Shown here: one piece after another, positions 1-14,002 of the stretch | Layout: every line of letters begins with the position of its first letter | Numbering within the stretch: position 1 is the stretch's first letter | Source of the DNA: a virus | Taxonomy: Duplodnaviria > Caudoviricetes | Reading direction: 5' to 3' (one strand) | DNA: 64,000 nucleotides | Virus record (IMG/VR): IMGVR_UViG_3300029305_003800 | Location: 1 to 64,000 of that record | The notes under the pieces: model-generated | The model's database searches: none | Seen by the model: only the letters and a program-made list of their open reading frames with translations | Told to the model about the DNA's origin: nothing | Position numbers and translations under genes: made by a program

Positions 1-408
1 ACAGTAGAAAACATTTCAATTCACACAGATTTTGGTGCTATAGCAGTTGAAAGAGATATAACATATTCTGTATTAGAAAGAATGTTGGGAAAACAATATC
101 TTACAGAACAAGGTATTAGCAATATTAAGGCAGCAATAAATGCACAATTACAAAGATATAAAACAAATGGATATCTTAATGTAGGTGCACAATACAGTGG
201 AAATGATTTAACAATCACATATAACAATGTAAAATATAATGTTATCAAAAATGGTGCAGCACTTCCACAAGGATTTTATATTTTCTCAGTTCCAATGAAT
301 AATATATCTGTAGCAGACAAACAAGCAAGAAAATTTACACCTATATATGTAATTCTTGAGACACAAAATGGTGCAAGAGTTGTTGAAATCACAGGTGAAG
401 TAAGATAA
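1..408 (+). CDS. Tail sheath protein, C-terminal part (DUF3383-like), 5'-truncated by window edge
   Basis: Frame open from base 1. C-terminus GFYIFSVPM..ISVADKQARKFTPIYVILETQNGARVVEITGEV resembles DUF3383 sheath C-termini. Confidence 0.7.
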   Translation, partial: TVENISIHTDFGAIAVERDITYSVLERMLGKQYLTEQGISNIKAAINAQLQRYKTNGYLNVGAQYSGNDLTITYNNVKYNVIKNGAALPQGFYIFSVPMNNISVADKQARKFTPIYVILETQNGARVVEITGEVR

Positions 409-604: not shown

Positions 605-931
605 ATGTATAAATATTATTTAATAAGGCATAATAATAAACAATATAAAGTTAGAGCAGAAAATGAAGACGCAGCAGTAGCGAAACTTAAAATTGTTTTG
701 GAAAATAAAGATCAGGAACTATTCACCACAAATGTAGATGATGGATTTGGAGATATAGCAAAAATATTAGGAGGAATTGCAGTAACAGCATTAGAAGGAA
801 AGAAAATGTTACAGTCAAGTTCTACACCACCTATATCTGAAAGTATTATGAAATCTATGGCAGTAATAGGAACTGACATTTTAGCAATGGGAGCAGAAGT
901 CGCAAATTTGGCAAAGAAAAATCTTAAGTAA
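605..931 (+). CDS. Small putative head-associated protein with shared 24-aa tag
   Basis: GAGGAG RBS before ATG 605. N-terminal YLIRHNNKQYKVRAENEDAAVAKL motif shared with three downstream proteins. Confidence 0.65.
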   Translation: MYKYYLIRHNNKQYKVRAENEDAAVAKLKIVLENKDQELFTTNVDDGFGDIAKILGGIAVTALEGKKMLQSSSTPPISESIMKSMAVIGTDILAMGAEVANLAKKNLK

Positions 932-948
932 GGAGGTAGATCAATAAG

Positions 949-2622
949 ATGAGCAACAGTTTAGAATCATTTATTAATTCTAGTGTGGGCAAAGGCAACA
1001 TGACTTCAAATATAAGATTATCTACCTCTATAAATAATTCAGAAACTTCAGCATTAGGAAAGACAGCAAAAATGATGGATGAAGCAATACAGGAAGGATT
1101 TGGATCAGTAAGAGTAAGAGATGGTTCATTTAACAATCCTGCAATGCAGACAGGTATGTCTAACTACATGTTGAATGGAGCATATTTTAGTGGAGATTTA
1201 ATTACATTTAGACGACAAGAATTGATGGCAATTTATAATGGTTGTTGGGTATTTAGGAAAATAGTGGATATTCCAGCAAGAGATATGTGGTCTAATGGAA
1301 TAGATATTAACACTGAAAGTGTAAATGATAATGAATTAGCAGGAGTTTATTCAAAATATAATATATTAAAAAGTAAACTCATATATGCAACAAAACAAGC
1401 AAGAATATTTGGTGGCGCAGCATCTTTAATAATGGTTGACGACGGAGAAGAAGATTTATCAAAACCATTAAAACTCTCAAATATTAAGAAAGGTTCAAAA
1501 ATAAATCTCTTGACAACAGACAGATGGTATGGATTAAGTTGGTCAAGTGAAGTTGTTGATGATTATAGAAGTTCTGAATTTGGATTACCAAAATATTACT
1601 CATTCTTTATAGATGGTGTAGAAGAAACACAACAAATACATCATTCAAGAGTTCTAAGATTTGTCAATAGAAAATCACCTAGAATAATTGAACAACAATT
1701 ACAAGGATGGGGAATATCTGAGTTAGAGCATATTCTACAAGATTTAATGAATCACGAGAACACAAAGAATTCTATTGCTTCATTATTAAATAAAGCACTA
1801 TTAGAAATCATTAAGTTAGACGGTATGAGAAATACATTTAGTGGTCTTAGTGCAGGAAATGCTCAATCAGCAGCAATGTTTGCAGCACAAATGGCAGCAT
1901 TAAATAATTACAGAACATCAAATAAACTTGTATTTATGGACAAACAAGATGAATATGAAAAGCAAGAATATTCATTTAGTGGATTATCTGAAATACTTGA
2001 AGCACAGAAAGATATTGTATCTGGTGCAGCAGAAATGCCAGAAGTATTATTGTTCGGAACAAATAGAGCAGGATTAAATGGTGATAAACCTATTGAATTA
2101 AGAATATATGATAACAACATTCAGGGAAAACAAGATGATGAATGTCGTCCTATATTAGATAAATTATTACCAGTAATTTTTAGAACTTGTGGTCTGGAAG
2201 TTCCAGCAGATTTATCTTATGAATTTATAAGTATGTTAGAAGATTCTGATGAGACAAGACAGAATTACTTAACAAACTTAGTAAATAATATAACATCATT
2301 ATTAGACAATAATTTAATAACTCATGAAACTGCCTTACAAGAAATTCAAGCATCAGTGAAGAAGACAGGATTTGGTCTTAAAATAACAGAAAAAGATATT
2401 GAAAGAGCAAAGAAAGCAGATGAGTTAGAAGCAAATAGTCCAGGAGAGGATGAGAATGGATTAGATCTAGGTCTAAATAATGGAGAAGAAGATATTGTAA
2501 CAGAAACTACAGAGAAAAATATAATTCCACAACAAAGGGCTGAAAATACCTTGAAAACGGACGATTATACAGAAGTAAAAAATAGAATTATAAGTGCAAC
2601 ATTGAGAGATAAAAGAAAATAA
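949..2622 (+). CDS. Portal protein (DUF1073-type)
   Basis: Y..W..RKIVDIPARDM, ARIFGGA, FGLPKYY, IHHSRVLRF, WGISEL, FSGLSEIL, SGAAEMP..LLFG motifs; 557 aa; in head module. Confidence 0.9.
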   Translation: MSNSLESFINSSVGKGNMTSNIRLSTSINNSETSALGKTAKMMDEAIQEGFGSVRVRDGSFNNPAMQTGMSNYMLNGAYFSGDLITFRRQELMAIYNGCWVFRKIVDIPARDMWSNGIDINTESVNDNELAGVYSKYNILKSKLIYATKQARIFGGAASLIMVDDGEEDLSKPLKLSNIKKGSKINLLTTDRWYGLSWSSEVVDDYRSSEFGLPKYYSFFIDGVEETQQIHHSRVLRFVNRKSPRIIEQQLQGWGISELEHILQDLMNHENTKNSIASLLNKALLEIIKLDGMRNTFSGLSAGNAQSAAMFAAQMAALNNYRTSNKLVFMDKQDEYEKQEYSFSGLSEILEAQKDIVSGAAEMPEVLLFGTNRAGLNGDKPIELRIYDNNIQGKQDDECRPILDKLLPVIFRTCGLEVPADLSYEFISMLEDSDETRQNYLTNLVNNITSLLDNNLITHETALQEIQASVKKTGFGLKITEKDIERAKKADELEANSPGEDENGLDLGLNNGEEDIVTETTEKNIIPQQRAENTLKTDDYTEVKNRIISATLRDKRK

Positions 2623-2663
2623 TTAAAAGAAATAAAAGTTATTCTTAATAGGAGGAAAATCAA

Positions 2664-3749
2664 ATGGATAATGATAACTTAATTAAAGTTCCAGCAGAAT
2701 ACGCAAGGACACTAGGAAGAATGGGACTTACAGAATACAAGATAGTTCAAGAAGATGCAGACGGAATAGTTATTTCGGCTCCAATTGAATTATGCAGGAC
2801 ATTGTTAAGAATGGGACTCGTTGATTACAAGGATGCAACTGACTCAAATTACTTAATTGTTAAAGCAACAAAATGTGAGTTTGTAGATATTGCAGAAGCA
2901 GTAATGGGAAATATTGCAGCAGTTACAAAACTAACACAAAGTGGTAATGATGTAGCAGTTAATGTTGAATTTGATGAATTAGTTGATATTGCATCTCCAG
3001 TTACAGGACAAACAAAGAAATATATTGTATTATTAGTTAAAACAAACTTTGATACAATTGTAGGTGCAAAATTCAATAATGTCACACTTACAGAAACTGA
3101 TGTTGAAAATGCAGCAAAATTAGGTGGAGCATCAGGAACTATTGCATGGTGGGTTGACGCAGCATCAATTAAGGGTGCAAAACTTACAGCAACAGTTGAA
3201 AAAGAAACTTATACCACAGAAACTATTTCAGTAACAGGAACAGATGTGTCAAAGTATAATTTAACTTATACAAATGAAGATAGTAATGTTACGGCAGTAT
3301 TTACAGGAGCAAATGGTAGAACGATTACTCCAGGTGAAGATGTCATCAATTTAGGTGAAACAGTAAATATGACACTAACCGCAACAAATAGTAAATTTAT
3401 TGATACTGTTACTGTTAACGGAGAAGAAGTAAATGTCGGAGCAACATCATTTACAGCACAGATTATAGAAAATGCTAATACTAATGTTACAGTAGTTGTA
3501 ACAGAGGTTGCAGGTGTAACATTGTCATATAATGCAAATGATGCAGAAGCAACAGGAACCACTGCAAGTCAAACAGTAGCAACAGGATATAAAGCAACAG
3601 TTGCAGCGAATGGATTTGAAGTTGCAGGAAAAGTATTCTCAAAATGGAATACAGCAAGTGATGGAACAGGAACTGATTATGATCCAGAAGTAGAAATAAC
3701 AATGACCGCAAATTTAGAGTTATTTGCTATATGGACAGCAGAATTATAA
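2664..3749 (+). CDS. Ig-like/InlB B-repeat-containing virion decoration protein
   Basis: C-terminal YNAN..ATGT..F...GKVFSKWNTASDGTGTDY..LELFAIW matches the Listeria-Bacteroides (InlB B) repeat; Thr/Val-rich beta domains. Confidence 0.7.
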   Translation: MDNDNLIKVPAEYARTLGRMGLTEYKIVQEDADGIVISAPIELCRTLLRMGLVDYKDATDSNYLIVKATKCEFVDIAEAVMGNIAAVTKLTQSGNDVAVNVEFDELVDIASPVTGQTKKYIVLLVKTNFDTIVGAKFNNVTLTETDVENAAKLGGASGTIAWWVDAASIKGAKLTATVEKETYTTETISVTGTDVSKYNLTYTNEDSNVTAVFTGANGRTITPGEDVINLGETVNMTLTATNSKFIDTVTVNGEEVNVGATSFTAQIIENANTNVTVVVTEVAGVTLSYNANDAEATGTTASQTVATGYKATVAANGFEVAGKVFSKWNTASDGTGTDYDPEVEITMTANLELFAIWTAEL

Positions 3750-3778
3750 TAAGTCATTAAAAATGGAGGAAAATTAAA

Positions 3779-4369
3779 ATGATTAAAAATAATGTTTTTA
3801 GAGGAGTAGTTTACACATTCCTTACAGCAATGATGGTATATGCAGGAGTAGTAGGTATAGGCATGATGGGTGGTTCATTAGAAATGACTGCAGCAGAATT
3901 ATATACAACTCTTGGATACACAGGATTATTAGTTCTTGCAGGGATAGTATTCTTTGGCATAAATATGCTTATATTTGCAATTAATAACTATAAACAATTT
4001 GTGTATTATACTGCAGGAAAAGTAGATAATAGAAAATACGGCAAGAAAGTATTTGCGAAACTGTATAAAGCAGTTATAGCAATTCTATTGCTTGCAGGAA
4101 TTATTGTATTATTTACAATAAAGATTAATTTAATTGAATTTATAAGATTTGGTGATATAAAGACAGTTGTATTAGCAGGATTAACATTAATAGCAGTTGT
4201 ATTGTTATTTGCATTTGAATTTGCTGAGTTAATTTTTACAATTAAAGCAAGAGGTCCAAAGAAACCAAAGGCAAAGAAAGTTAAGAAAGCAAAGCAAGTA
4301 GAACAACCAGTTGCACCAAAAGCAACAGAAGTTCAAGAAAAACCAGTATTTAGATTTGGTAAGAAATAA
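3779..4369 (+). CDS. Integral membrane protein (about 4 TM helices)
   Basis: Four long hydrophobic segments and a Lys-rich C-tail; GGAGG RBS. Confidence 0.7.
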   Translation: MIKNNVFRGVVYTFLTAMMVYAGVVGIGMMGGSLEMTAAELYTTLGYTGLLVLAGIVFFGINMLIFAINNYKQFVYYTAGKVDNRKYGKKVFAKLYKAVIAILLLAGIIVLFTIKINLIEFIRFGDIKTVVLAGLTLIAVVLLFAFEFAELIFTIKARGPKKPKAKKVKKAKQVEQPVAPKATEVQEKPVFRFGKK

Positions 4370-4383
4370 GGAGACTGTAAATT

Positions 4384-5916
4384 ATGAAAACTGTTGATGA
4401 GGAATTAAAACCAGAAACAGTTGAAACTTTAGATTTGAGAGGGGACATTGGGTTCCTTCTCAAAGATGAAGTTGAAGCAATAGATGGTTATGATAGAGTA
4501 TTAAAAAGAGCAGAATTAACAGAAGAACAGAAAAACATGTTAGAAGAAATTCGTAATGATGAATTAGAACATGTTGATAAGTTGAATGAAATTTACAGAA
4601 CCTTGGCTACAGGAGAAATAGAGGAGGGTAATGACATCGTGAAGTATAATAAAGATTCAAAAGTAAAAGATTATAAATCAAACGAACTTATTGCTCATAT
4701 CCGTGAATTATATAAGACTATTGGTAAAGATAAAATAGAACAATATAAGGAAATTCTTAAAAAGAAAGGTGGATACAGAGATTTAGGCACAAGATTAGCA
4801 TGGGATGCTTTACATGTAGCGACTCATAATGCAGGAGAAAGAATGTCTGATTGGTATGATAAATATGAAGTAAATGACAATCATATTGATTCTGCTGCTA
4901 AGAAAGTTCTAAGAGAGATGGGTGTATCTTTAGTTGATGCTAATAGAGTAAAAGATGAAGATCCTATTCAAAAGATAGTTGGCAGAAAATTAGAGACAGC
5001 ACTAGATGTCTTAGATTTAGTGAAAATATACTTAGGAAATTATAAGTGGCACAATAATCCAGATGGAACAATGACAGTTAGCACAGATGCAGGAAAATAT
5101 ATTATTAAATTCAAATATGAACCTAAAAATGAAGAAAATTCAGAAAGAGTTATTGTAAGTAATATTACAAAAATTGAAGATGATTTTACAGGAGCAGAAT
5201 TCAAAGAAGCAAATGTAAATGAACCATTAAATCCAATGTGTGATGAAGAAGTAGAAGATGGGTTCCTTGAAAATGTTTTAAGCAAGGGATTAGGAGTAGT
5301 TAATAATATGGTAAATCAATTAGACGAGGATACAGCAGAATTAGAATTAGGTGATGATATTCCAGTTGAAGAACAAATAAAAAGATATCTAAAAGAAAAT
5401 GGAAAAAGTGCAGGAAGATTAAAACTAGTAGGAATTAGTCAACCAGAGATTGAAGTTTATTTAGATAATGAATTTATTGGTAAGTGGAATAGAGAAAAGA
5501 AACAGATGGGTGACTCTGCTGAAATGGTAGAACAATTAAAACAAGAAGCAATAGAAGCACATGAAAGACTTACAGACACAGACACATCTAATGATATCGG
5601 ATTAATAGAGAAAGGAAATCAATATCGTTGGGAAGAAAAGTATGGTAATACTCTACTAACTGTCCTTAAGACGGATACAGAAATCAGACTTGCACTTGAT
5701 AGAAATGGAGCATATGTAGAAATTCCTAGAGAAAAGTTTGAAGAAATGATAAGATCTGGAAAATTAAAAGCAGTTGAAAGTGTAAACATAGAAGAATATA
5801 GCGATATTGAAACATTAAAAGATTACAAAGTTAAAGTTGGAGACAAGACATTTGTAGTAAGTGCAAAATCACCAAAAGATGCTAAAAATAAAGTAAAATC
5901 AAAATTAGGAGAGTAA
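4384..5916 (+). CDS. Modular putative internal head protein: N-terminal ferritin-like domain, C-terminal 24-aa tag
   Basis: LKDEVEAIDGY...LEEIRNDELEH (ferritin/rubrerythrin-like E..E and ExxH ligands); C-terminal YKVKVGDKTFVVSAKSPKDAKNKV. Confidence 0.6.
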   Translation: MKTVDEELKPETVETLDLRGDIGFLLKDEVEAIDGYDRVLKRAELTEEQKNMLEEIRNDELEHVDKLNEIYRTLATGEIEEGNDIVKYNKDSKVKDYKSNELIAHIRELYKTIGKDKIEQYKEILKKKGGYRDLGTRLAWDALHVATHNAGERMSDWYDKYEVNDNHIDSAAKKVLREMGVSLVDANRVKDEDPIQKIVGRKLETALDVLDLVKIYLGNYKWHNNPDGTMTVSTDAGKYIIKFKYEPKNEENSERVIVSNITKIEDDFTGAEFKEANVNEPLNPMCDEEVEDGFLENVLSKGLGVVNNMVNQLDEDTAELELGDDIPVEEQIKRYLKENGKSAGRLKLVGISQPEIEVYLDNEFIGKWNREKKQMGDSAEMVEQLKQEAIEAHERLTDTDTSNDIGLIEKGNQYRWEEKYGNTLLTVLKTDTEIRLALDRNGAYVEIPREKFEEMIRSGKLKAVESVNIEEYSDIETLKDYKVKVGDKTFVVSAKSPKDAKNKVKSKLGE

Positions 5917-5919
5917 ACT

Positions 5920-6531
5920 ATGAACATATTTGAAAGAAATAATAAACCTGCAATCAAACAAACAGTTAGAGATGCAGCAGAAGTAATAAATGAAGAAGTT
6001 GAACAAGTTGAGACTCCAGTTGAAGAACCAGTTGAGACCACTGAAAAGGTAGTTGAAACCAATGAACAAGAGATTATAACAGAACCTGTAGAAGAACAAA
6101 AGTTCCACAAATACAGAGTAAAATTCAATGGAAAGAAATACAGAGTTGTTGCTAAATCAGAAATTGAAGCATATGAAAAGATACAGAAGTTCTTTGAAAA
6201 TAAAATTATAGAACCTGCAAAAGAATTGAAAGAAGAAGATAAACAAATTATAATTAAAGTGAAAGATATCTTCAATGCTATAGCAGGAGAAATAACTCGC
6301 ATTGTAACAGTAGCACATCCAGAAACAGTAGATAACACATATGACAGATGGGTTGCAGTATTAACAGAAGAGTTAGGTGAAATCGTTCACGAAATAAATG
6401 ATGCATATGAGGGAAAACAACCTACAAAGAATACTTATGTAGAATGTGTTCAACTCGCAGCAGCAACAATACTACTTGCTAAAAAGTTCGCTAATGAGCA
6501 TCCGGAGATGTTTTCTGAGGAGGACAAGTAA
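5920..6531 (+). CDS. MazG-like NTP pyrophosphohydrolase domain protein with 24-aa tag
   Basis: WVAVLTEELGEIV...VECVQLAA matches the MazG-fold EExGE...ExxQ/D pattern; acidic N-terminus. Confidence 0.65.
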   Translation: MNIFERNNKPAIKQTVRDAAEVINEEVEQVETPVEEPVETTEKVVETNEQEIITEPVEEQKFHKYRVKFNGKKYRVVAKSEIEAYEKIQKFFENKIIEPAKELKEEDKQIIIKVKDIFNAIAGEITRIVTVAHPETVDNTYDRWVAVLTEELGEIVHEINDAYEGKQPTKNTYVECVQLAAATILLAKKFANEHPEMFSEEDK

Positions 6532-9474
6532 ATGTCATATATAGTAAAGACTAAGGGACGAAAATTCATAGTTGATGCAGACTCACACAAGGATGCTGTA
6601 AAGAAAGTAAGAGACAGTCTCTTGAAAGATGGCTATAGTTATGAAGACTTTGAGAAAGATCTTGAAAAGATGGGAATTAAAGGTCATACATCAACACTTT
6701 TTGCTGAGGCAAAGAGAGGACTCCCAAACTTAAAGAGAATAAAAGAACTCTCAGGAGGTTGGTGGAAGGATGTTGATGCTGAAAGGATTTACAAACTTGC
6801 AATGAATGTAAGAGACTCTGAATTATCTACAAACAAATATGAAAAAGAATTCGGACTTGTAGGAAGAACTCAAGACAAGTTAATTGAATCAGGCTCAGAG
6901 AAAGCATTACAAAAGAATATTGCAACTGAAATAAAAGCAGGAAAAGATCCAAAACAAGCAGCAGCAATAGCATACTCAATTCAAAGAGAGAATGATGGAA
7001 ATATAATTCCTAAAAATGCAAAAAAGATAGAATTTACATTCAAAAAAGATGGCGAGAAGTTAATTCTTGAAAATATGGGATACATGGGGTGGTCTAATAT
7101 AAATAAGAATGAAATATATCCAAATTCTTTGATAAATGACTATCTTAAATCAGGACTCGCAACTGTAAAAGTTATTGATTCAGCAATAAATGATGCAGAA
7201 ATACCTCATATAACAAAAGAACAATGGAATAAAATTCCAAAGGAATACAAAACAACAGATCCAAAAACAGGAAAGAAACAAGCATTTGCAGGAAGTTTGG
7301 GAATTGCTCCAGGTGGAACAACATTATTAACAGAAGGAATGCATTTTATAATTGACTCAGAAGAAAAGAATTATACTTATATAATGTTTGGAACTACAGG
7401 AGAAAAGAGAGTAGATAATCTTACAAAAGCAGAGGCAGAACATTTACTTAAGAATAATAAACTTTTAGGATATGATGGAAAAATAGTAGAAACAAAAACT
7501 CTAAAAGATGCAAAGCAAGAATATAGAGTAAATTATCACAATAGTTATACGGGAAGACATGCAGTAGATTATGTTGAAGCAAATAATGTAAAAGAAGCAT
7601 TAAGAAAGTTTGGAAGAGATGTAGCACTTAGAGGAGACGGAACAGCAAATATAAATGTTCATAGTATATCTCCTAATGAAGGATATCAAAGAATTTACGG
7701 AAAACTGAGCGAATTATTAAAGAATAAAGATTTTCAAGATTCTGTTGAAGATGATATCACCAACCAACAATATTTTACTGATAAAATTGAAAAAGCAAAA
7801 AATGTAGGAAAATTTACATTGTGGAAAGATGAAGAAGGAAACTATTATTTAGATGCAACAATTAGCAGAAGTGGAAAAAGACTTCAAAATCTCAAAACAA
7901 AAGACATAAATGAAGCAAGAAGAATTGCAAAAGAACATTTAGATTTTATTGAAGACTCAGCAATAGAAGATGAAACAAAAATAATAAATACAAAACTTTG
8001 GAATCCTGATTTTTACTTAGTTAAAGAACCAAATTTTAATGAAGTAAAAGAAGGAATAAGAAAAGTATTAAAGAACTCAGGACTTGAAGCAACATGGATA
8101 GAATTATCAGTATTTAATTCATATGTTACATTTAATCCTCGTGATAAAAGATTAGATAATGCTCCATTAAAGAAAGTTTTAAATGACCTACTAAAATATA
8201 TAAATAAAAATTTATATGTTGATAAATTAGTTTGTTCAGGTGGACAATTCAAATTTACAATAAAGGGATTTGAATATTTACTTAATAAATACAAAGTATT
8301 CAAAGATACTGCTGAAGAAATAGAAGATAAATCAGTATTCTCAGAAGAAACAATGAATTCTATGCAAGAAGGAATTGAAAAAGATTATGAGAGTATGGAA
8401 AATAGACTTGAAAAATTACATGATACATCTGCTCCAAAAGAAATAGAAGATTTACCTATTAAAGCAAGACAAGAGTTAAGAAATGCAAAAGAAAAAGGTC
8501 CAAAACTGTTAGAAATATTAAGTCAATTACAAGATATAGTAAATAAAGCATCTGCAGAAGAAAGGGCAGAAGTAAGATATAAGGCAGAAAAGATATTAGC
8601 AGATCTCAAAAAGCAGTTTGGATTAGAAAGAGAAACATACATTAAGTTAGATTCTGCAATTGAAGATGAAAGATTATCTCCAATGACTTATTCTAAATTA
8701 AAAGAGTTAGGATACGATCAAGATGATTGGAAAGATTTAACACAAGAACAAGCAAATGAATTAGTTGCAAAAGGTAGAAAAGAAACTACAAATGGAGAAA
8801 CTTCTAATGAAGAGAATTCTACAATAGAAACTAAATCTACGAATAAAAATATAGAGAAATATGAAGTTCCTGAAGAGTATGATGCAAGTAAATGGACAGA
8901 AACAGAAGAATATACTAAATTTATGAAAGAACAGTTCAAAACAGGAGATCCAAAAGTATCTGAATATGGAATTGAATTCAAAGGTAATTTTTCTAAAGAA
9001 GATTTAGATAAAGTAAGAAATTATTTTGATGGAGAAGGATTAGATATACTTGAAACCAAAAACGGAATCATGTTATCTCAAGGTGCAGATTATGTAGATG
9101 ATCAAGAAGAGTATGAAGAATTTGCAAAACAAAGAGAAGAATGGTTAAATCAAGAAAATAAACCAAAAATTGAAAATAATCCTGAAAATAGAGGAAGATG
9201 GTTGGAGTTAATTAAAAAGCAGTTTGACAAAGGAGAATTATCTGAAGAAGAGCGAAAAGAATTAGAAGAATTAGATGCAGTGATAAATCCACCAAAAACT
9301 GAAGAACAAAAAGAAAGGGATAAAGAGAAAACAAAACTCAATACTGAGTTAGAAACTCTTAAATCTGAGTTGAAACCAAATAATAGATATTATTGGAAGA
9401 AAAGTGAGATAAAAGAAAAAGAAGATAGAATTGCAGAATTAGAAAGAAAAATTGCAGAACTTGAATCTAAATAA
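6532..9474 (+). CDS. Large modular putative internal head polyprotein (980 aa)
   Basis: N-terminal tag; repeated DSAIED-like linkers; contains the small phage head-region domain [28 protein letters not shown]. Confidence 0.6.
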
Positions 9475-9519: not shown

Positions 9520-9541
9520 TATAATGATTATAGAGGTAATT

Positions 9542-10507
9542 ATGAAACTAACAAAAAGTCAAGAAAGAAAATTGAGAAGAAAACTTAAATTAAAATCCTC
9601 AGCAGAAGATATATTTGTAGATATGTTCTTAAATGATGTAAAAAATGAAATAGGGAAGAAAATAAGAAATGCCAAAACATTAAGAGATGTGGATATAATA
9701 ATCTCTAATATAGATGTAAAAAACATAAAAAATTATGCAAAGAATTTAAGAAATAAAGTCCTTATAAGAAATAACATTGGATTTACAGAAATAATAAAAT
9801 CCATGACTCAAGGATTAACTCAAATAAGACAAAAACAAAAAGAAGCAAAGTTATTTAATAAAGAAATGAAAAATCTTGTTAAAAATCAGGGATTAACAAA
9901 ACCTTTATTAGATATATTTGAGCATAATATGACTTTAATTAAGAATTTACCGTCTGTATGTTATAACGAATTAAGAAAAGGATATCTAGAAGGAAAATCA
10001 TTTAGAGGCACAGAATTAGAACAAAAACTCTATGAAAAATTAGGAAGTAGAGCAAAACTAGTTGTAAGAACAGAAAGTGCAAAAGTAAATACAGCAATAA
10101 CAGAAGTTCGTTCAAGATCTCTAGGAGTCAAAGGTTATATATGGTCAAGTAGTGGTGATGCAAGAGTAAGAGACACACATTCTATGCTGGATGGAGTTTT
10201 AATATTTTGGGACGATGTTCCAACATTTATGTATACAACACAAAAAGGGACACAGTCAAATATGGTTGGGCATTGTGGAGAAACTCCAAACTGCAGATGT
10301 ATAGCAATTCCTATAATATATTTTAGTGATATAAAATTCCCTGTTAAAGTTGCAGAACATGTGACATTCAACACATGGTCAAGAAATGGTAAGAGTTATT
10401 CAAAGATAAGTGGTGGTAAGATACAATTATATAATAAACAACAATTCTTATTAAAGTATGGAGAAAGATTCCTTGAACCATCTGAATTAAGAAAATTATT
10501 AAAATAA
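9542..10507 (+). CDS. MuF / SPP1 gp7-family minor head protein
   Basis: RAKLVVRTESAK, YIWSSSGDARVRDTH..LDG..F.WD, GHCGETPNCRCIAIP. Confidence 0.9.
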   Translation: MKLTKSQERKLRRKLKLKSSAEDIFVDMFLNDVKNEIGKKIRNAKTLRDVDIIISNIDVKNIKNYAKNLRNKVLIRNNIGFTEIIKSMTQGLTQIRQKQKEAKLFNKEMKNLVKNQGLTKPLLDIFEHNMTLIKNLPSVCYNELRKGYLEGKSFRGTELEQKLYEKLGSRAKLVVRTESAKVNTAITEVRSRSLGVKGYIWSSSGDARVRDTHSMLDGVLIFWDDVPTFMYTTQKGTQSNMVGHCGETPNCRCIAIPIIYFSDIKFPVKVAEHVTFNTWSRNGKSYSKISGGKIQLYNKQQFLLKYGERFLEPSELRKLLK

Positions 10508-10591: not shown

Positions 10592-11242
10592 ATGACAAAG
10601 ACAGTGTGGGATAAAACAATAATAAATGATTTAACAAAAGTTTGTAATAAAGAGATTGAATTATCAGAATTCCTAAATATGCATTGGGAGAAATTCAAAC
10701 CTACATATATCAATGTATTTAAGTATATTGAAAGTGAAGGAGATGTATATCTTTTAGTGCATAAATTCTTCAGTAAAATACTGAGATCTGATGTTCAACC
10801 TCTTTTTCAATCTGACAATCAATTATTCAGTTATTTCAAAATATCTGCTAAAAATGAAAAATATGACATAGAGCATAAGAAAGAAATAAAAATGATCCCA
10901 TTCAGCGAATATTTTGATCCAATGATAGAGAATAATTCAGATGATCCCCCTGAAGATAAAATTCCAGAAACAGGAATGTTAATGGAAGACATTGTGCAAG
11001 GAGAAAGTATTGTGGAACAAATATTTACAGAAGTCTCAAAAATTCTATCAGAACCATACATTCAAGTATTGATATTACTATATAAAGAGTATTCACCAAA
11101 AGAAATAAGAAAAATGTTAGGAGTAAGTCTAACAACAGTTAGAGACAGAATAAATGTGATAAGAAAAACTCTTAAGGAAGATTTAGGTATTTCAGAGAAA
11201 AATTTATCTTTGGGTGAAGAAAAAGACAATTTTATTAAATAA
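10592..11242 (+). CDS. Sigma-70/ECF-like transcription factor
   Basis: Region 4-like HTH L..LYKEYSPKEIRKMLGVSLTTVRDRINVIRK; region 2-like FSYFKISAKN. Confidence 0.6.
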   Translation: MTKTVWDKTIINDLTKVCNKEIELSEFLNMHWEKFKPTYINVFKYIESEGDVYLLVHKFFSKILRSDVQPLFQSDNQLFSYFKISAKNEKYDIEHKKEIKMIPFSEYFDPMIENNSDDPPEDKIPETGMLMEDIVQGESIVEQIFTEVSKILSEPYIQVLILLYKEYSPKEIRKMLGVSLTTVRDRINVIRKTLKEDLGISEKNLSLGEEKDNFIK

Positions 11243-11278: not shown

Positions 11279-12373
11279 ATGCGATTATTAGATAGCACAA
11301 GAACGACATTTGGAACTAAACTTAGTGATCATATCTGGAAAGACAACAACGGACAGTTAATTTGTCGTGATTGTATTATTGCTAGGACAGGTAGTTATGA
11401 CTATTTAGAAAGCGAAATAATTGAGGGTGGTGATAGAAACAAAATAGTTAAAGTCTTCAGGACTGACGACGAAGTGTTTGATCCAACATCAATAGCATCG
11501 TTTGAGAACAAACCATTTGTTGACGACCATCCTCTTGATAATGTGACTCCTGAGAATTACAGAGAATTAGCAAAGGGTTACATGATAAATGTTAGACGAG
11601 GCACAGATGATTTAGAAAACTGTCTCATGTGTGATGTAGTCATAACAGATCCAGACACAATAGACCTTGTAGTGTCGGGCAGAAAACGAGAATTGTCATT
11701 GGGATATGATACTGTTATTCAAAACAGAAGTGGGAACTATTACATGACAAAAATTCGTGGAAACCATCTAGCACTTGTTGATGATGGTAGGGCAGGATGT
11801 GCTACAATTAGAGACAGTGCAGAAAAGGTCAATGGAACAGGAGGAATTAAGAAAATGTCAAAGCAAAAAATTAAACTATTTGACGAAGACATCTTTGAAG
11901 TTGAAGAAATTAAAGAAGATGAAGATGTCGCAGTAGAAGAAGTTCCTCAAGAAATCGTCACAGAAACTGTTGAAGAAAAGCATGATGACGAACCTACACT
12001 TGCTGAAATCAAAGCAATGTTGTTAGAAATTAAAGATTTGTTAGTTGCTAAAAAAGACAGTGGTGAAGAAGTTGTTGAAGCAAAAGAAGAGGTAAAGCAA
12101 CCAGATGTTGTAGGTGATGAAGATCCTGTGGAAGAAATGAAAGAGGAAGAAGAAATCATTGAAGAACAAAATGATTGCAATGCCAAAGACGAAGACGGAG
12201 ACAAACTTCTTGACGCAGACGAAATTGAAGAGGAAGTAAAAGTCGCTAAAGATTCTAAATCTGTTTACACAAAATTCTCTAAGGTAACAGATAGTTCTGC
12301 AAAGAATAATAAAGCAGAAGATATCAATAAGAGTTTTCAAGACAGATACAACAGAGCAGCAAATAAGATATAG
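11279..12373 (+). CDS. Prohead protease/scaffold (DUF2213-type)
   Basis: IARTG.Y.Y, SFENKPFVDDHP, RELSLGYD, IRGNHLALVDDGRAG; acidic scaffold C-half. Confidence 0.9.
   Translation: MRLLDSTRTTFGTKLSDHIWKDNNGQLICRDCIIARTGSYDYLESEIIEGGDRNKIVKVFRTDDEVFDPTSIASFENKPFVDDHPLDNVTPENYRELAKGYMINVRRGTDDLENCLMCDVVITDPDTIDLVVSGRKRELSLGYDTVIQNRSGNYYMTKIRGNHLALVDDGRAGCATIRDSAEKVNGTGGIKKMSKQKIKLFDEDIFEVEEIKEDEDVAVEEVPQEIVTETVEEKHDDEPTLAEIKAMLLEIKDLLVAKKDSGEEVVEAKEEVKQPDVVGDEDPVEEMKEEEEIIEEQNDCNAKDEDGDKLLDADEIEEEVKVAKDSKSVYTKFSKVTDSSAKNNKAEDINKSFQDRYNRAANKI
11855..12373 (+). CDS. Possible nested in-frame scaffold protein
   Basis: AGGAGG at 11839-11844 and in-frame ATG 11855 just after the protease domain. Confidence 0.5.
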   Translation: MSKQKIKLFDEDIFEVEEIKEDEDVAVEEVPQEIVTETVEEKHDDEPTLAEIKAMLLEIKDLLVAKKDSGEEVVEAKEEVKQPDVVGDEDPVEEMKEEEEIIEEQNDCNAKDEDGDKLLDADEIEEEVKVAKDSKSVYTKFSKVTDSSAKNNKAEDINKSFQDRYNRAANKI

Positions 12374-12390: not shown

Positions 12391-12867
12391 ATGTCTAAAT
12401 TGATTTTAGGTCAAGCAGGATTTGACCAATTAGCATTAGGTTATGAAACAAATGTTAGCCAAATTAAGACAAGAGCATATACTGTTGCTGCAACAGAAAC
12501 AAATGGTATTGTTCCAGGTGATTTACTTGCATGCACTGCAAATACTCAAGTTTATAAAGTATTGACAAGTGCAACAGAAAAAATCGCAGGAATTGCTCTT
12601 GCAACAAATGTAAAAGTTGATCCTTTATTCCCACAAAGTGCAACTGAAGTTAAATTTATGCCAGGAGACCATGGCGCAGCACTTATCTATGGTGAAATGG
12701 CAGTTAAATTGTATGGAACTGCTCCAGCAGAAGGAGACAAAGTTTACTATGATTTAACACAAAAAGCATTCACAAAAACTTCAACAGATAATGTAGAAGT
12801 TCCAGGTGCAAGATTCATGGGAAGAACAAACGGTAACATCACAGTTATCTTCGTTCAATACATTTAA
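12391..12867 (+). CDS. Capsid cement/decoration protein
   Basis: 158 aa between scaffold and major capsid; GIALAT, GDKVYY beta-tulip-like pattern. Confidence 0.7.
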   Translation: MSKLILGQAGFDQLALGYETNVSQIKTRAYTVAATETNGIVPGDLLACTANTQVYKVLTSATEKIAGIALATNVKVDPLFPQSATEVKFMPGDHGAALIYGEMAVKLYGTAPAEGDKVYYDLTQKAFTKTSTDNVEVPGARFMGRTNGNITVIFVQYI

Positions 12868-12883
12868 TAGGAGGAATAGAAAG

Positions 12884-14002
12884 ATGGAAAGTATTTTAGA
12901 AGCAGTATCTCTTAGAGATTCAAAAGAGTCTATTACCTCAAGTGCACAAGAATGCAAGAAAGGTATTTCATTAAGAGACGCAAATCCAGGATTATATAAA
13001 AGTCTTGGTAAAACAAATGTTCATGACGCAAACTTTGCATTCGTTATGACAGAATTAAGTAAATTACATGAAAAAGTTTATGAACCAAAATACAACACAA
13101 CTTATGCTCAGGATATTCCAGTAAAAGTTGGTGGTGGTATGGTAGACTTCGTTGACTTCTTCACTGTAGAATGGGCAGGTATGCCGACAGATGCTAACTT
13201 AACAGGAAACAATGTTAACATTATTCCTAGAGTTAACGCAAAATTGAACCACAAGAAAGTTAATGTTTACAATTTTGAAATTGCATATGATATCAAATTC
13301 ATTGAAATTGACAAATTGAACAAACTTAACTTTGCTAAATCACTTGAAGCAATTTACAAAGATGCTATTCTTGCAGGATGGGATTTGTTCTGTGATAAAA
13401 TTGCTTATGAGGGTCCAAATGGTAATGATGGTCTATTTACATCAGGTAATGTATTGACAACTATTATTCCAAGAGGAACTGCAGATGCAACAGCAACAGG
13501 ATTTGCTCAAATGACAGACGCAGAAATTGTATCAACTATTAATGGTATTTTATCATTCTATTTGATCAATACAAACAATAACATTGATTTGTTACCAGAC
13601 ACATTCTTGTTACCAACAACTGATGCTACAGAATTGTCAAGCAGATTCAGCACACTTTACAGCAATACATTAAGAAACTTCTTGATGGAATTCAATGTAG
13701 GTATTGATGAAGCAAAAGCAGCAGGATTTGATAACTATAAATTAAGAATGAGAGGTCGTGCAAGACTTAATGGTGTAGGAACAAATGCTGCAGGAAGAAT
13801 TGTTGCTTACAAATTTGATGAAGATTATGTAAGAATGGACATTCCATATCCAGTTCAAGTTTACTACACAGGTCCAAACACAGACAAACTTTGCTATACA
13901 ACTTACTTTGTTGGTCAAGCAAGTGAGATTCAACTTCCATATAATACAGACAATGCAAACATTGGTCCTGTAACATATTGGGACTTCACAGCAGGACAAT
14001 AA
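12884..14002 (+). CDS. Major capsid protein (DUF2184-type, HK97 fold)
   Basis: AGGAGG before ATG 12884. ELSKLHEKVYEP, DKIAYEG..GLF, PDTFLLP, GRIVAY..DEDYVRMDIP; high-expression codon use. Confidence 0.9.
   Translation: MESILEAVSLRDSKESITSSAQECKKGISLRDANPGLYKSLGKTNVHDANFAFVMTELSKLHEKVYEPKYNTTYAQDIPVKVGGGMVDFVDFFTVEWAGMPTDANLTGNNVNIIPRVNAKLNHKKVNVYNFEIAYDIKFIEIDKLNKLNFAKSLEAIYKDAILAGWDLFCDKIAYEGPNGNDGLFTSGNVLTTIIPRGTADATATGFAQMTDAEIVSTINGILSFYLINTNNNIDLLPDTFLLPTTDATELSSRFSTLYSNTLRNFLMEFNVGIDEAKAAGFDNYKLRMRGRARLNGVGTNAAGRIVAYKFDEDYVRMDIPYPVQVYYTGPNTDKLCYTTYFVGQASEIQLPYNTDNANIGPVTYWDFTAGQ

What the first reader, a model, noticed from the sequence alone, without database searches (positions are those of the whole stretch)
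605..6620. A shared 24-aa tag on four otherwise unrelated head-region proteins: candidate capsid-targeting signal
Seen, ungapped: YLIRHNNKQYKVRAENEDAAVAKL (gene 605, N-term), YKVKVGDKTFVVSAKSPKDAKNKV (gene 4384, C-term), YRVKFNGKKYRVVAKSEIEAYEKI (gene 5920, internal), [24 protein letters not shown] (gene 6532, N-term). Consensus Yx[VI][KR]xxx[KR]x[YF]xVxAx[SN]xxxAxxK[LVI], predicted beta-beta-alpha. A looser copy lies at about 7519-7612. The tag is position-independent and fused to different cargo (amphipathic helices, ferritin-like, MazG-like, polyprotein). Known: T4 internal proteins and encapsulin cargo use short targeting peptides. Inference: a portable packaging domain that loads cargo into the prohead for injection. 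I do not recognise a described system of this form.
Basis: partly seen in the sequence, partly recalled or inferred. Interest (0 to 1): 0.85.

Follow-up and report, generated by a model that had tools for sequence, protein, structure and literature searches.

The report
Shared end-tag on phage head cargo
A 100-kb cattle-rumen phage and its relatives put the same 28-residue folded mini-domain on the very end of many unrelated proteins encoded among their head-assembly genes; it is probably an address label that loads these proteins into the capsid, but neither loading nor injection has been measured.

Summary
All four copies lie at the stated coordinates. A profile built without it finds a fifth copy in the same genome, just outside the window. 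A search of 1.84 billion proteins finds only this family: 36 true hits, all from related uncultured phages.

The tag is a basic beta-hairpin plus helix (AlphaFold pLDDT 80-88). In g5920 it is flanked by disordered linkers. It is not position-independent: 33 of 37 non-redundant copies sit at the extreme N- or C-terminus (3.5 expected), and some polyproteins carry one at each end.

Every genomic context I could retrieve places it among or on head-assembly genes:
- two completely scanned genomes;
- four metagenome contigs with only about 45% portal identity;
- one protein in which the sole DUF2213 head protein is fused to cargo modules ending in the tag.

Cargo modules are swapped at D-S-A-I-x-D linkers while the tag stays. 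The MazG-like cargo occurs in both orders relative to the tag.

Portability and head linkage are therefore supported. Capsid loading, cleavage and injection remain inference.

It resembles T4's capsid-targeting sequence and polyvalent proteins but is a member of neither. This scan has noted analogous "address plus cut-here" systems, with different tags, in other phages. The looser copy at 7519-7612 is not confirmed.

The parts
617..688 (+). Tag copy 1, N-terminus (aa 5-28) of the 108-aa protein g605 (gene 605-931). The rest of the protein is predicted amphipathic helices.
   Evidence: Orthologues P0006 and P0043-45 keep it. It is the weakest copy in the leave-one-out test.
5824..5895 (+). Tag copy 2, C-terminus (aa 481-504 of 510) of g4384 (gene 4384-5916). 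The protein has a two-helix ferritin/rubrerythrin-like motif at its N-terminus.
   Evidence: Orthologues P0002, P0004, P0051 and the relative P0031 also end in the tag. The rubrerythrin hit is weak (P0031, E 0.0087).
6112..6183 (+). Tag copy 3, internal (aa 65-88 of 203) in g5920 (gene 5920-6531). It lies between a disordered acidic leader and a helical, weakly MazG-like cargo.
   Evidence: All 27 orthologues share this architecture. AlphaFold: aa 1-60 disordered, tag E63-69 E72-78 H81-93, aa 95-106 disordered, helices 114-198.
6538..6609 (+). Tag copy 4, N-terminus (aa 3-26) of the 980-aa modular polyprotein g6532 (gene 6532-9474).
   Evidence: Orthologues P0008, P0009, P0047 and P0053 all start with it although the modules behind it differ.
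7177..8667 (+). Four D-S-A-I-x-D type linkers inside g6532, at aa 216, 403, 475 and 707 (nt 7177-7194, 7738-7755, 7954-7971, 8650-8667). They mark module boundaries.
   Evidence: The regex finds 6 sites in the genome: 4 here and 1 in the 251-aa tag protein (shuffle mean 2.2). Breakpoints of mosaic orthologues fall at these sites.
949..2622 (+). Portal protein (Phage_portal_3 / DUF1073).
   Evidence: Pfam PF06381, E 1.3e-73.
9524..10507 (+). MuF / SPP1 gp7-like head morphogenesis protein, directly after the polyprotein.
   Evidence: Pfam PF04233, E 8.9e-13; phrog_324.
11279..12373 (+). DUF2213 domain fused to an acidic scaffold-like half. It is a homologue of the Pa193 gp24 capsid-interior scaffolding protein. 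The domain ends in GRAGCATIRDSA (nt 11786-11821). A conserved acidic hairpin-like motif lies at nt 11861-11911.
   Evidence: Pfam PF09979, E 1.8e-43. PHROG label 'head maturation protease'. PDB 9b40_G, E 4e-8; PMC11456595. Conservation in 92 distinct orthologues.
12391..14002 (+). Cement/decoration protein (12391-12867) and the ORF read as major capsid protein (start uncertain; ORF 12806-14002).
   Evidence: For 12391-12867: phrog_563 / phrog_122. For both genes: tblastn to L014 homologues that lie next to each other. The window's MCP itself was not scanned against Pfam. The PF09950 match was obtained on the L004 counterpart.

Best explanation
The tag is a small, basic, independently folding beta-hairpin-plus-helix module of about 28 residues. 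Its consensus is K-x-[YF]-x-[VI]-K-x-G-[DN]-[RK]-x-[FY]-x-V-x-A-x-[SN]-x-x-[DE]-A-[VI]-x-K-[VL]-[KR].

Proposed function: an assembly address. It sits at a free end of cargo proteins and cargo polyproteins and docks them onto a component of the assembling prohead core. My first guess for that component is the acidic scaffold part of the DUF2213 protein. Portal, MuF and the inner capsid wall are alternatives.

Proposed sequence of events: the cargo is enclosed when the shell forms. The D-S-A-I-x-D linkers then let a head protease cut the chains into separate modules and cut the tag off. The modules stay with the DNA and are delivered at infection.

Shown here: the family, its fold, its terminal position, its portability, its restriction to this phage group, and its linkage to head genes.

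Inferred: docking, the partner, cleavage, packaging and injection.
For: 1. The family is real and narrow. It has 36 true hits at E<=1e-3 in 1.84 billion proteins, all modular phage proteins from 50-100 kb contigs.

2. It sits at the termini. 33 of 37 copies among 50%-identity representatives are terminal, against 3.5 expected. Five polyproteins carry a tag at both ends.

3. It folds on its own. pLDDT is 83-88 for the isolated tag. In g5920 it lies between two disordered stretches and is not part of the cargo fold.

4. It is portable.
- The N-terminal tag is kept in five mosaic orthologues whose next module differs.
- The MazG-like cargo is leader-tag-cargo in the window lineage (27 of 27 orthologues) but cargo-tag in the L014 lineage.
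- Other cargo includes LRV/HEAT repeats (P0027) and a rubrerythrin-like module.

5. It is linked to head genes.
- In the complete genome G000 all five strict copies lie in one 8.8-kb arc, from just after the large ORF read as terminase by position to just before MuF. None lies in the other 91 kb.
- In relatives with 45% portal identity, five tags on four proteins all lie between portal and DUF2213, on both sides of MuF.
- In G001 and L004 a polyprotein with a short tag variant follows the capsid gene directly.

6. A natural fusion points the same way. The only DUF2213 protein of the complete 58-kb genome G001 (P0035) has no fused scaffold. It carries cargo modules and ends in the tag (39.8 bits), and the scaffold is a separate gene. 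DUF2213 proteins are capsid-interior proteins: Pa193 gp24 was found in virions by LC-MS and cryo-EM (PMC11456595).

7. Charges are complementary. The tag has a mean net charge of +4.1. The scaffold half is strongly acidic and begins with the near-invariant motif L[FY]D[ED]D[IV][FY]EVEE.

8. The linker resembles the conserved C-terminal end of the DUF2213 domain itself...ATIRDSA in the window and ...RIIDSVADA in P0035.
Against: - There is no experimental datum of any kind. These phages are uncultured, so there is no virion proteome.
- Gene position among head genes is shared by descent within each lineage. The independent contexts number about three, not dozens.
- For L014-L017 only the 21 kb around DUF2213 was seen, so tags elsewhere in those genomes would have been missed.
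- In G001 the tagged DUF2213 gene lies between baseplate and tail-fibre genes, not in a tidy head module.
- That DUF2213 is a protease rests on a PHROG label only. The Pa193 paper calls its homologue a scaffolding protein and never mentions a protease.
- No cleavage has been seen at any linker.
- If the linkers are cut, only the end module stays attached to the tag, so the tag must act before cutting.
- The proposed pairing with the scaffold hairpin is my own pattern-matching and was not computed.
- g5920 carries the tag internally, and P0029 has a truly internal copy.
Confidence: 0.5

Rival explanations
1. It is a DNA-tethering mini-domain. The basic beta-beta-alpha unit has the size and topology of a zinc-less zinc finger. 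It binds nucleic acid, so cargo rides on the packaged DNA, or acts on host or phage DNA after entry. It is not an address for the protein core of the prohead.
For: Mean net charge is +4.1 over 28 residues. K25 is near-invariant and the basic position 10 is near-invariant as R or K. T4 internal proteins and many ejection proteins are basic DNA binders (established knowledge; PMC3012670, PMC7697877 listed). The head-gene linkage fits this reading equally well.
Against: A DNA binder need not sit at a chain end, yet 33 of 37 copies do. No hit to any nucleic-acid-binding family. The fold search gives only generic Z<=5 matches. The DUF2213 fusion P0035 is easier to explain by protein-protein targeting.
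Confidence: 0.15
2. It is a structural end-cap or self-association module with no addressing role. A stable mini-domain protects the free ends of long, loosely folded modular chains from exoproteolysis. Alternatively, it pairs tag with tag, joining tagged proteins into bundles or closing a chain that carries one at each end.
For: Terminal bias. Tags at both ends of five polyproteins and a tandem pair in P0026. A 28-residue beta-beta-alpha unit is at the lower size limit for autonomous folding and may need a partner strand (general knowledge).
Against: This does not explain why small, well-folded single-domain cargo (g5920, the LRV-repeat protein P0027) needs the same cap. It does not explain why the module is confined to proteins encoded among head genes. 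It does not explain why the DUF2213 protein that lost its scaffold gained one.
Confidence: 0.15
3. It is a divergent, shortened DpnD/PcfM-like domain. That family, of unknown function, occurs on conjugative plasmids and in restriction cassettes. On this reading the tag acts inside the host as part of the cargo's own anti-defence or regulatory function, not as an address.
For: One tag gives a sub-threshold Pfam hit to PF14207 (E 0.15). The ESM Atlas structural neighbour with the best query TM is a DpnD/PcfM cluster (TM 0.85 over 32 residues). In pCF10, PcfM lies two genes from an AcrIIA9-family gene.
Against: The Pfam score is 12.5 bits against a cut-off of 25. Only 1 of 5 window tags and 0 of 17 members of alignment A4 give the hit. 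No match in the genome-wide scan. hhalign against pCF10 PcfM gives 1.9% probability, aligning only 14 columns. The tag lacks the C-terminal strands of the 46-residue domain. A TM score means little for 32 residues.
Confidence: 0.08
4. It is a by-product of recombination. The tag and the linkers are simply the sequences at which these phages shuffle modules. They are kept by descent and local duplication and have no function of their own.
For: Copies are clustered in one region, and module breakpoints coincide with the linkers.
Against: The copies share only 25-50% identity within one genome, yet the structural core is conserved: A16 and A22 invariant, K25 in 36 of 37, V14 in 34 of 37, aromatic residues at positions 3 and 12. 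That is purifying selection on a fold, not recent copying. The tag persists in lineages with only about 45% portal identity. The terminal bias is unexplained.
Confidence: 0.05

Closest known systems
Phage T4 capsid targeting sequence (CTS) of the internal proteins IPI, IPII, IPIII and Alt, removed by the gp21 prohead protease (reviews PMC3012670, PMC9958956, PMC9026906)
   Same: A short shared element on otherwise unrelated proteins. On the present reading it directs them into the prohead core and is followed by a site where it could be cut off. It is portable to foreign cargo in T4, and naturally shuffled here.
   Different: The T4 CTS is an unstructured peptide of about 10 residues. It is N-terminal only and ends in the L/I-x-E gp21 site. 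The tag here is a folded 28-residue beta-beta-alpha unit used at either terminus, sometimes both. The phages have a DUF1073 portal, DUF2213 protein and DUF2184 capsid rather than T4-type head genes. There is no sequence similarity. Function here is untested.
Polyvalent proteins of phages and conjugative elements (Iyer, Burroughs, Anand, de Souza, Aravind 2017, PMC5512222)
   Same: Long chains of many small unrelated domains, encoded next to portal and MuF genes and predicted to be packaged and delivered. Their architectures are highly mosaic between relatives.
   Different: That work does not describe a shared terminal address domain or a repeated linker. None of its named domains is found here above threshold; the only trace is LPD26 at E 0.0017 in one protein. 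The tag also marks single-domain cargo, not only polyproteins.
Coat-binding domain of the phage P22 scaffolding protein, and the helix-turn-helix of Pa193 gp24 (PDB 2GP8, 9B40; PMC11456595)
   Same: A terminal mini-domain of about 30-40 residues whose job is to hold a protein on the inside of the assembling shell, largely through charge. The P22 domain is basic, like the tag here; the visible turn of Pa193 gp24 is acidic. The window's DUF2213 protein is a sequence homologue of Pa193 gp24 (E 4e-8).
   Different: Those domains are helix-turn-helix, they belong to the scaffold itself, and they are not shared among many cargo proteins. The tag is beta-beta-alpha and sits on cargo.
Propeptides and S/A/G-x-E processing of inner-body and ejection proteins in giant phages (phiKZ, SPN3US; PMC5694885, PMC7411985, PMC10052503)
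   Same: Many head-internal proteins are processed by one prohead protease at a short repeated motif. The N-terminal parts are discarded after assembly.
   Different: The protease family and the cut motif differ. No common folded tag is known there. Cleavage is measured by mass spectrometry in those phages but not here.
DpnD/PcfM family (Pfam PF14207)
   Same: A beta-hairpin followed by a helix carrying a V-x-A-x-S-x-x-x-A motif. It is the closest predicted-structure neighbour in the ESM Atlas (TM 0.85 over 32 residues). It occurs on mobile elements.
   Different: The Pfam domain is 46 residues long and has further C-terminal strands. Sequence and profile tests are not significant. Its function is unknown, so the comparison explains nothing yet.

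Membership tests
T4-type capsid targeting sequence | Located only at the N-terminus of the precursor | tested here: not met
   13 of 64 strict copies are C-terminal and 6 are internal. Five polyproteins carry one at each end.
T4-type capsid targeting sequence | Short unstructured peptide of about 10 residues ending in an L/I-x-E site for a gp21-family protease | tested here: not met
   The tag is a 28-residue predicted beta-beta-alpha unit, pLDDT 83-88. It is followed by [KR]-D-[SA], not L/I-x-E. The candidate head protease/scaffold is DUF2213; no gp21-family search was run.
T4-type capsid targeting sequence | Sufficient to carry a foreign protein into the head | not testable with these tools
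   This needs a tag-reporter packaging assay.
Polyvalent proteins (Iyer et al. 2017) | Two to fifteen unrelated domains in one polypeptide with mosaic architectures between relatives | tested here: met
   g6532 and P0008, P0009, P0047, P0053 share some modules and differ in others, with breakpoints at the linkers. P0010, P0025 and P0036 are similar.
Polyvalent proteins (Iyer et al. 2017) | Encoded with portal-terminase packaging and MuF genes | tested here: met
   Window gene order. L014-L017.
Polyvalent proteins (Iyer et al. 2017) | Contains the named effector or LPD domains of that collection | tested here: inconclusive
   Only LPD26 at 18.9 bits (cut-off 27) in P0017. Nothing in the other 20 or so proteins scanned.
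DpnD/PcfM (PF14207) | Score above the Pfam gathering threshold (25 bits) | tested here: not met
   Best score 12.5 bits, E 0.15, for one of five tags. No match in the genome-wide scan. None among 17 members of A4.
DpnD/PcfM (PF14207) | Profile-level or fold-level similarity over the whole 46-residue domain | tested here: inconclusive
   hhalign against pCF10 PcfM gives 1.9% probability over 14 columns. ESM Atlas gives TM 0.85 over residues 1-32 only.
Encapsulin cargo-loading peptide | Short C-terminal peptide binding a pocket of an encapsulin shell protein encoded next to it | tested here: not met
   Most copies are N-terminal. The shell here is that of a tailed phage, with portal, large-terminase-like ORF, sheath and PF09950-type capsid neighbours. 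The tag is a folded unit.

The most novel reading that the evidence does not exclude
A natural, modular 'address plus cut-here' code of a new type. A 28-residue folded beta-beta-alpha domain works at either end of a chain and docks any cargo onto the acidic scaffold of DUF2213-type proheads. D-S-A-I-x-D linkers are cut by the DUF2213 protein, which releases a changeable kit of small proteins that is injected with the DNA. This would give a whole, abundant group of gut and rumen phages a plug-in system for virion-delivered effectors. It would also give engineers a second, structurally defined capsid-loading tag besides T4's.
Probability: 0.3. Interest if true: 0.8.

Novelty: new variant of a known kind. 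Interest (0 to 1): 0.62.

Why it matters
How tailed phages choose which proteins to enclose with their DNA is understood in detail only for T4 and partly for P22, P1 and the giant phages.

Here a sequence-defined, foldable tag marks the candidate cargo of an abundant but uncultured group of rumen and human-gut phages. One profile would therefore list their likely injected proteins: MazG-like, ferritin-like and repeat proteins, and dozens of unknown modules.

If the function holds, three things follow:
- It shows that capsid addressing evolved more than once and with different chemistry: a folded domain, usable at either terminus.
- It explains how cargo sets are reshuffled quickly in the arms race with host defences.
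- It offers a compact tag for loading foreign proteins into phage capsids.

If it fails, the family is still a new, well-delimited mini-domain with an unusual positional rule.

Tried and rejected
- **Context look-ups.** The contigs behind most tag proteins (ENA/Logan, up to 100 kb) could not be read.
- **Contig scans that found nothing.** IMG/VR scans with the portal, a tag-based alignment and P0011 found nothing. The first JGI metagenome scan with the tag alignment also found nothing. The five-tag alignment alone was too variable to scan with.
- **P0010 in IMG/VR.** It returned only loci sharing one internal module. One of them, L004, turned out to be informative.
- **Cultured phages.** No relative exists in the 50,697 deposited phage genomes. 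The portal is below 32% identical to anything there, and g4384 has no match.
- **Protein-family libraries.** Pfam, PHROGs and PDB sequence searches give no family for the tag.
- **Fold searches.** Only generic matches appeared: PDB Z<=5.0 (ribosomal LX, PurS, GB1, designed EEH mini-proteins) and BFVD E>=0.3. I do not read these as relationships.
- **DpnD/PcfM.** I considered membership and set it aside as unproven.
- **Looser copies.** The copies at 7519-7612 and in the 110-aa ORF (genome 97294-97626) could not be tied to the family: hhalign probability 10% and 2.4%.
- **Scaffold comparison.** BLAST between the separate scaffold of G001 and the acidic half of the window's DUF2213 protein is collinear but not significant (E 1.5). 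That equivalence rests on position and composition only.
- **MazG identity of g5920.** It stays suggestive only.


Full report
**What the window is.** The window is the first 64 kb of a complete 99,786-bp virus record. Earlier notes of this scan describe it as a cattle-rumen phage. It is AT-rich (about 30% G+C), and the large ORFs of the region studied all lie on the + strand.

Gene order around the finding, with genome coordinates where outside the window:
- a 683-aa ORF read as large terminase by size and position only, not scanned (94931-96982)
- small membrane protein
- 110-aa ORF
- 251-aa ORF
- virion protein (phrog_280)
- tail sheath, split over the record's ends
- g605
- portal (949-2622, PF06381)
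- 361-aa ORF
- membrane protein
- g4384
- g5920
- g6532
- MuF (9524-10507)
- sigma-like protein
- DUF2213 protein (11279-12373)
- cement protein
- an ORF read as capsid protein

They share only 6-12 of 24 residues.

Profiles built from three copies recover the fourth as the best non-training hit in the six-frame translation of the window for g4384, g5920 and g6532 (E 0.012, 8e-4, 0.006). The g605 copy is not separable from noise in that test.

Three independent results settle the matter:
- The four-copy profile finds a fifth, untrained copy at the N-terminus of the 251-aa ORF just outside the window (31 bits, E 1.5e-8). It finds no other hit in the whole genome.
- The five-copy profile, run against 1.84 billion representative proteins, returns 37 proteins at E<=1e-3. 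One is an Ig-repeat false positive. The rest are visibly the same kind of protein.
- Orthologues of g605 keep the tag.

The family consensus from 37 distinct copies is K-x-[YF]-x-[VI]-K-x-G-[DN]-[RK]-x-[FY]-x-V-x-A-x-[SN]-x-x-[DE]-A-[VI]-x-K-[VL]-[KR]. A16 and A22 are invariant, K25 is present in 36 of 37, and the mean net charge is +4.1.

The 'looser copy' at 7519-7612 is not supported.

**Anatomy.** The tag is not position-independent.
- Among the 62 proteins fetched up to that point, 45 strict copies start within the first four residues, 13 end within 12 residues of the C-terminus, and 6 are internal.
- Of the 6 internal copies, three are g5920 orthologues, two are the second unit of an N-terminal tandem pair, and one is truly internal.
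- Among representatives clustered at 50% identity, 33 of 37 copies are terminal where 3.5 would be expected for random placement. Relatedness inflates that P value, but not the pattern.
- Five polyproteins carry a tag at each end.

In g5920, modelled with 27 orthologues, the tag is a separate unit. Residues 1-60 and 95-106 are disordered, the tag (63-93) has pLDDT of about 80, and the helical cargo (114-198) has pLDDT 81-95.

The proteins behind the tag are chains of modules joined by D-S-A-I-x-D-type linkers.
- In this genome a strict linker pattern occurs six times. Four are in g6532 and one is in the 251-aa tag protein.
- Comparison of g6532 with four orthologues shows modules added, dropped and exchanged at these linkers.
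- The N-terminal tag is always kept, even when the very next module differs.

(a) G000, the complete genome of the window. All five strict copies lie in one 8.8-kb arc of the 99.8-kb genome, between the terminase-like ORF and MuF. For five random points that has a chance of about 3e-4 (my arithmetic).

(b) Four metagenome contigs, one of them from a human gut, found through DUF2213.
- They are only 45% (portal), 42% (MuF) and 47-49% (DUF2213) identical to the window.
- They carry five tags on four proteins, all between portal and DUF2213 and on both sides of MuF.
- Their cargo is largely different from the window's.
- Their MazG-like protein has the order cargo-tag, the reverse of the window's leader-tag-cargo.
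- Only 21 kb per contig could be seen, so this shows presence in the head block, not absence elsewhere.

(c) G001, a complete 58-kb phage.
- Its only DUF2213 protein (P0035) has no scaffold half. It continues into linker-separated modules and ends in the tag.
- A separate acidic scaffold gene, a cement gene (PF22758) and a capsid gene (PF09950) are followed directly by a polyprotein.
- That polyprotein begins with a shortened tag variant (13 bits).
- A whole-record scan found no further copy.
- The same arrangement is on the fragment L004.

The DUF2213 protein is a sequence homologue (E 4e-8) of Pa193 gp24. That protein was found in virions by LC-MS, and its helix-turn-helix was seen by cryo-EM under the capsid five-fold vertices (PMC11456595). 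The natural fusion in G001 therefore puts tagged cargo on a capsid-interior protein.

**Most likely mechanism.** I read the tag as an assembly address.
- It is a folded, basic end-module that docks cargo onto the prohead core before the shell closes.
- The linkers are the places where the chain is later cut.

The G001 fusion is the best single argument. Where DUF2213 lost its fused scaffold, it ends in the tag.

The linker resembles the conserved C-terminal boundary of the DUF2213 domain itself (GRAGCATIRD-SA in 92 distinct orthologues, RIIDSVADA in P0035). That would fit self-processing at that point. It would also fit the PHROG label 'head maturation protease'. But that label is the only evidence that DUF2213 is a protease, and no cut has been observed.

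A specific but speculative docking partner is the near-invariant acidic motif L[FY]D[ED]D[IV][FY]EVEE that opens the scaffold half. It also opens the separate scaffold genes of G001 and L004. Its alternation of hydrophobic residues mirrors the basic hairpin of the tag. I did not compute this pairing.

**Rivals.**
- A DNA-binding role fits the charge but not the terminal rule.
- An end-cap or self-pairing role fits the terminal rule and the double-ended polyproteins. It does not fit the restriction to head-gene neighbourhoods or the G001 fusion.
- DpnD/PcfM kinship rests on one sub-threshold hit and a 32-residue structural overlay, and it fails profile tests.
- Pure recombination debris is contradicted by the conserved structural core at low overall identity.

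**Comparison with known systems.**
- It works like the T4 capsid targeting sequence, but it fails that family's defining features: N-terminal only, unstructured, L/I-x-E site.
- The chains match the definition of polyvalent proteins (PMC5512222) in architecture and neighbourhood, but they carry none of that collection's named domains above threshold.
- Neither description includes a shared folded end-tag used at both termini.
- No Pfam, PHROG or PDB entry covers the tag.

Other agents of this scan have reported 'address tag plus cut-here linker' polyproteins in other phages, with unrelated tags. The general idea is therefore recurrent in this scan, but those notes are unchecked and are not evidence here.

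**Verdict.** It is a new variant of a known kind.

Noticed in passing
window 11786-11911 (DUF2213 protein aa 170-211): In 92 distinct orthologues the DUF2213 domain ends in GRAGCATIRD[SKN][AS]. A short variable stretch follows, ending in GG..M, and then the near-invariant acidic motif L[FY]D[ED]D[IV][FY]EVEE. The conserved Met suggests an in-frame internal start giving a separate scaffold protein, as in lambda C/Nu3. G001 and L004 encode the scaffold as its own gene starting with the same motif.
   Followed up: partly
window 5920-5943 (g5920 aa 1-8): All 27 orthologues of the MazG-like protein begin with a conserved M-[NG]-[IML]-[FL]-x-[KR] peptide. It comes before a leader of very variable length and sequence (mostly acidic) and then the tag. 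This may be a second, separate signal.
   Followed up: no
window 6880-6996 (g6532 aa 117-155): A module with the core [19 protein letters not shown] matches phrog_2423 (E 9e-15). It recurs in polyproteins of other lineages (P0009, P0010, P0016, P0031, P0036). It is the only cargo module here with a hit in a phage family library, and that family's function is unknown.
   Followed up: no
window 1-408 and genome 98397-99786: The tail sheath (phrog_205; only its C-terminal part in the window was scanned) and a virion protein (phrog_280) lie between the terminase-like ORF and the portal. The sheath-like ORF runs off the end of the record and resumes at its start. The two ORFs are not in phase across the junction, so a few bases may be missing or repeated at the ends. 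L014 has the same order: virion protein, sheath-like ORF, portal.
   Followed up: partly
window 10592-11242: A sigma-70 region-4-like / HTH protein (phrog_1740, E 1e-6) sits between MuF and the DUF2213 protein, inside the head gene block.
   Followed up: no
L014:6890-7477 (and L015-L017): In the distant lineage the MazG-like domain (EEFGEFAQEIND motif) comes first and the tag follows it, with a further roughly 80-residue region behind. This is the opposite domain order to the window's g5920.
   Followed up: partly
genome 97294-97626 (outside the window) and window 7519-7612: Two segments resemble each other more than they resemble the tag: KKFRVTKVDGTVEIIEANNMENAISLARNKFG and [31 protein letters not shown]. 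They may form a second beta-beta-alpha-like module family. Similar units (SILVRANSEEQAKHKLL) occur inside P0010, P0013 and P0022.
   Followed up: partly
L009:5033-6031 (G001): The 58-kb relative G001 carries a tyrosine-recombinase-like ORF between its tail-fibre genes and its capsid genes, so that lineage may be temperate. Its structural genes are scattered: the portal lies 10 kb upstream of DUF2213 with tail genes in between, and MuF is on the other strand.
   Followed up: no
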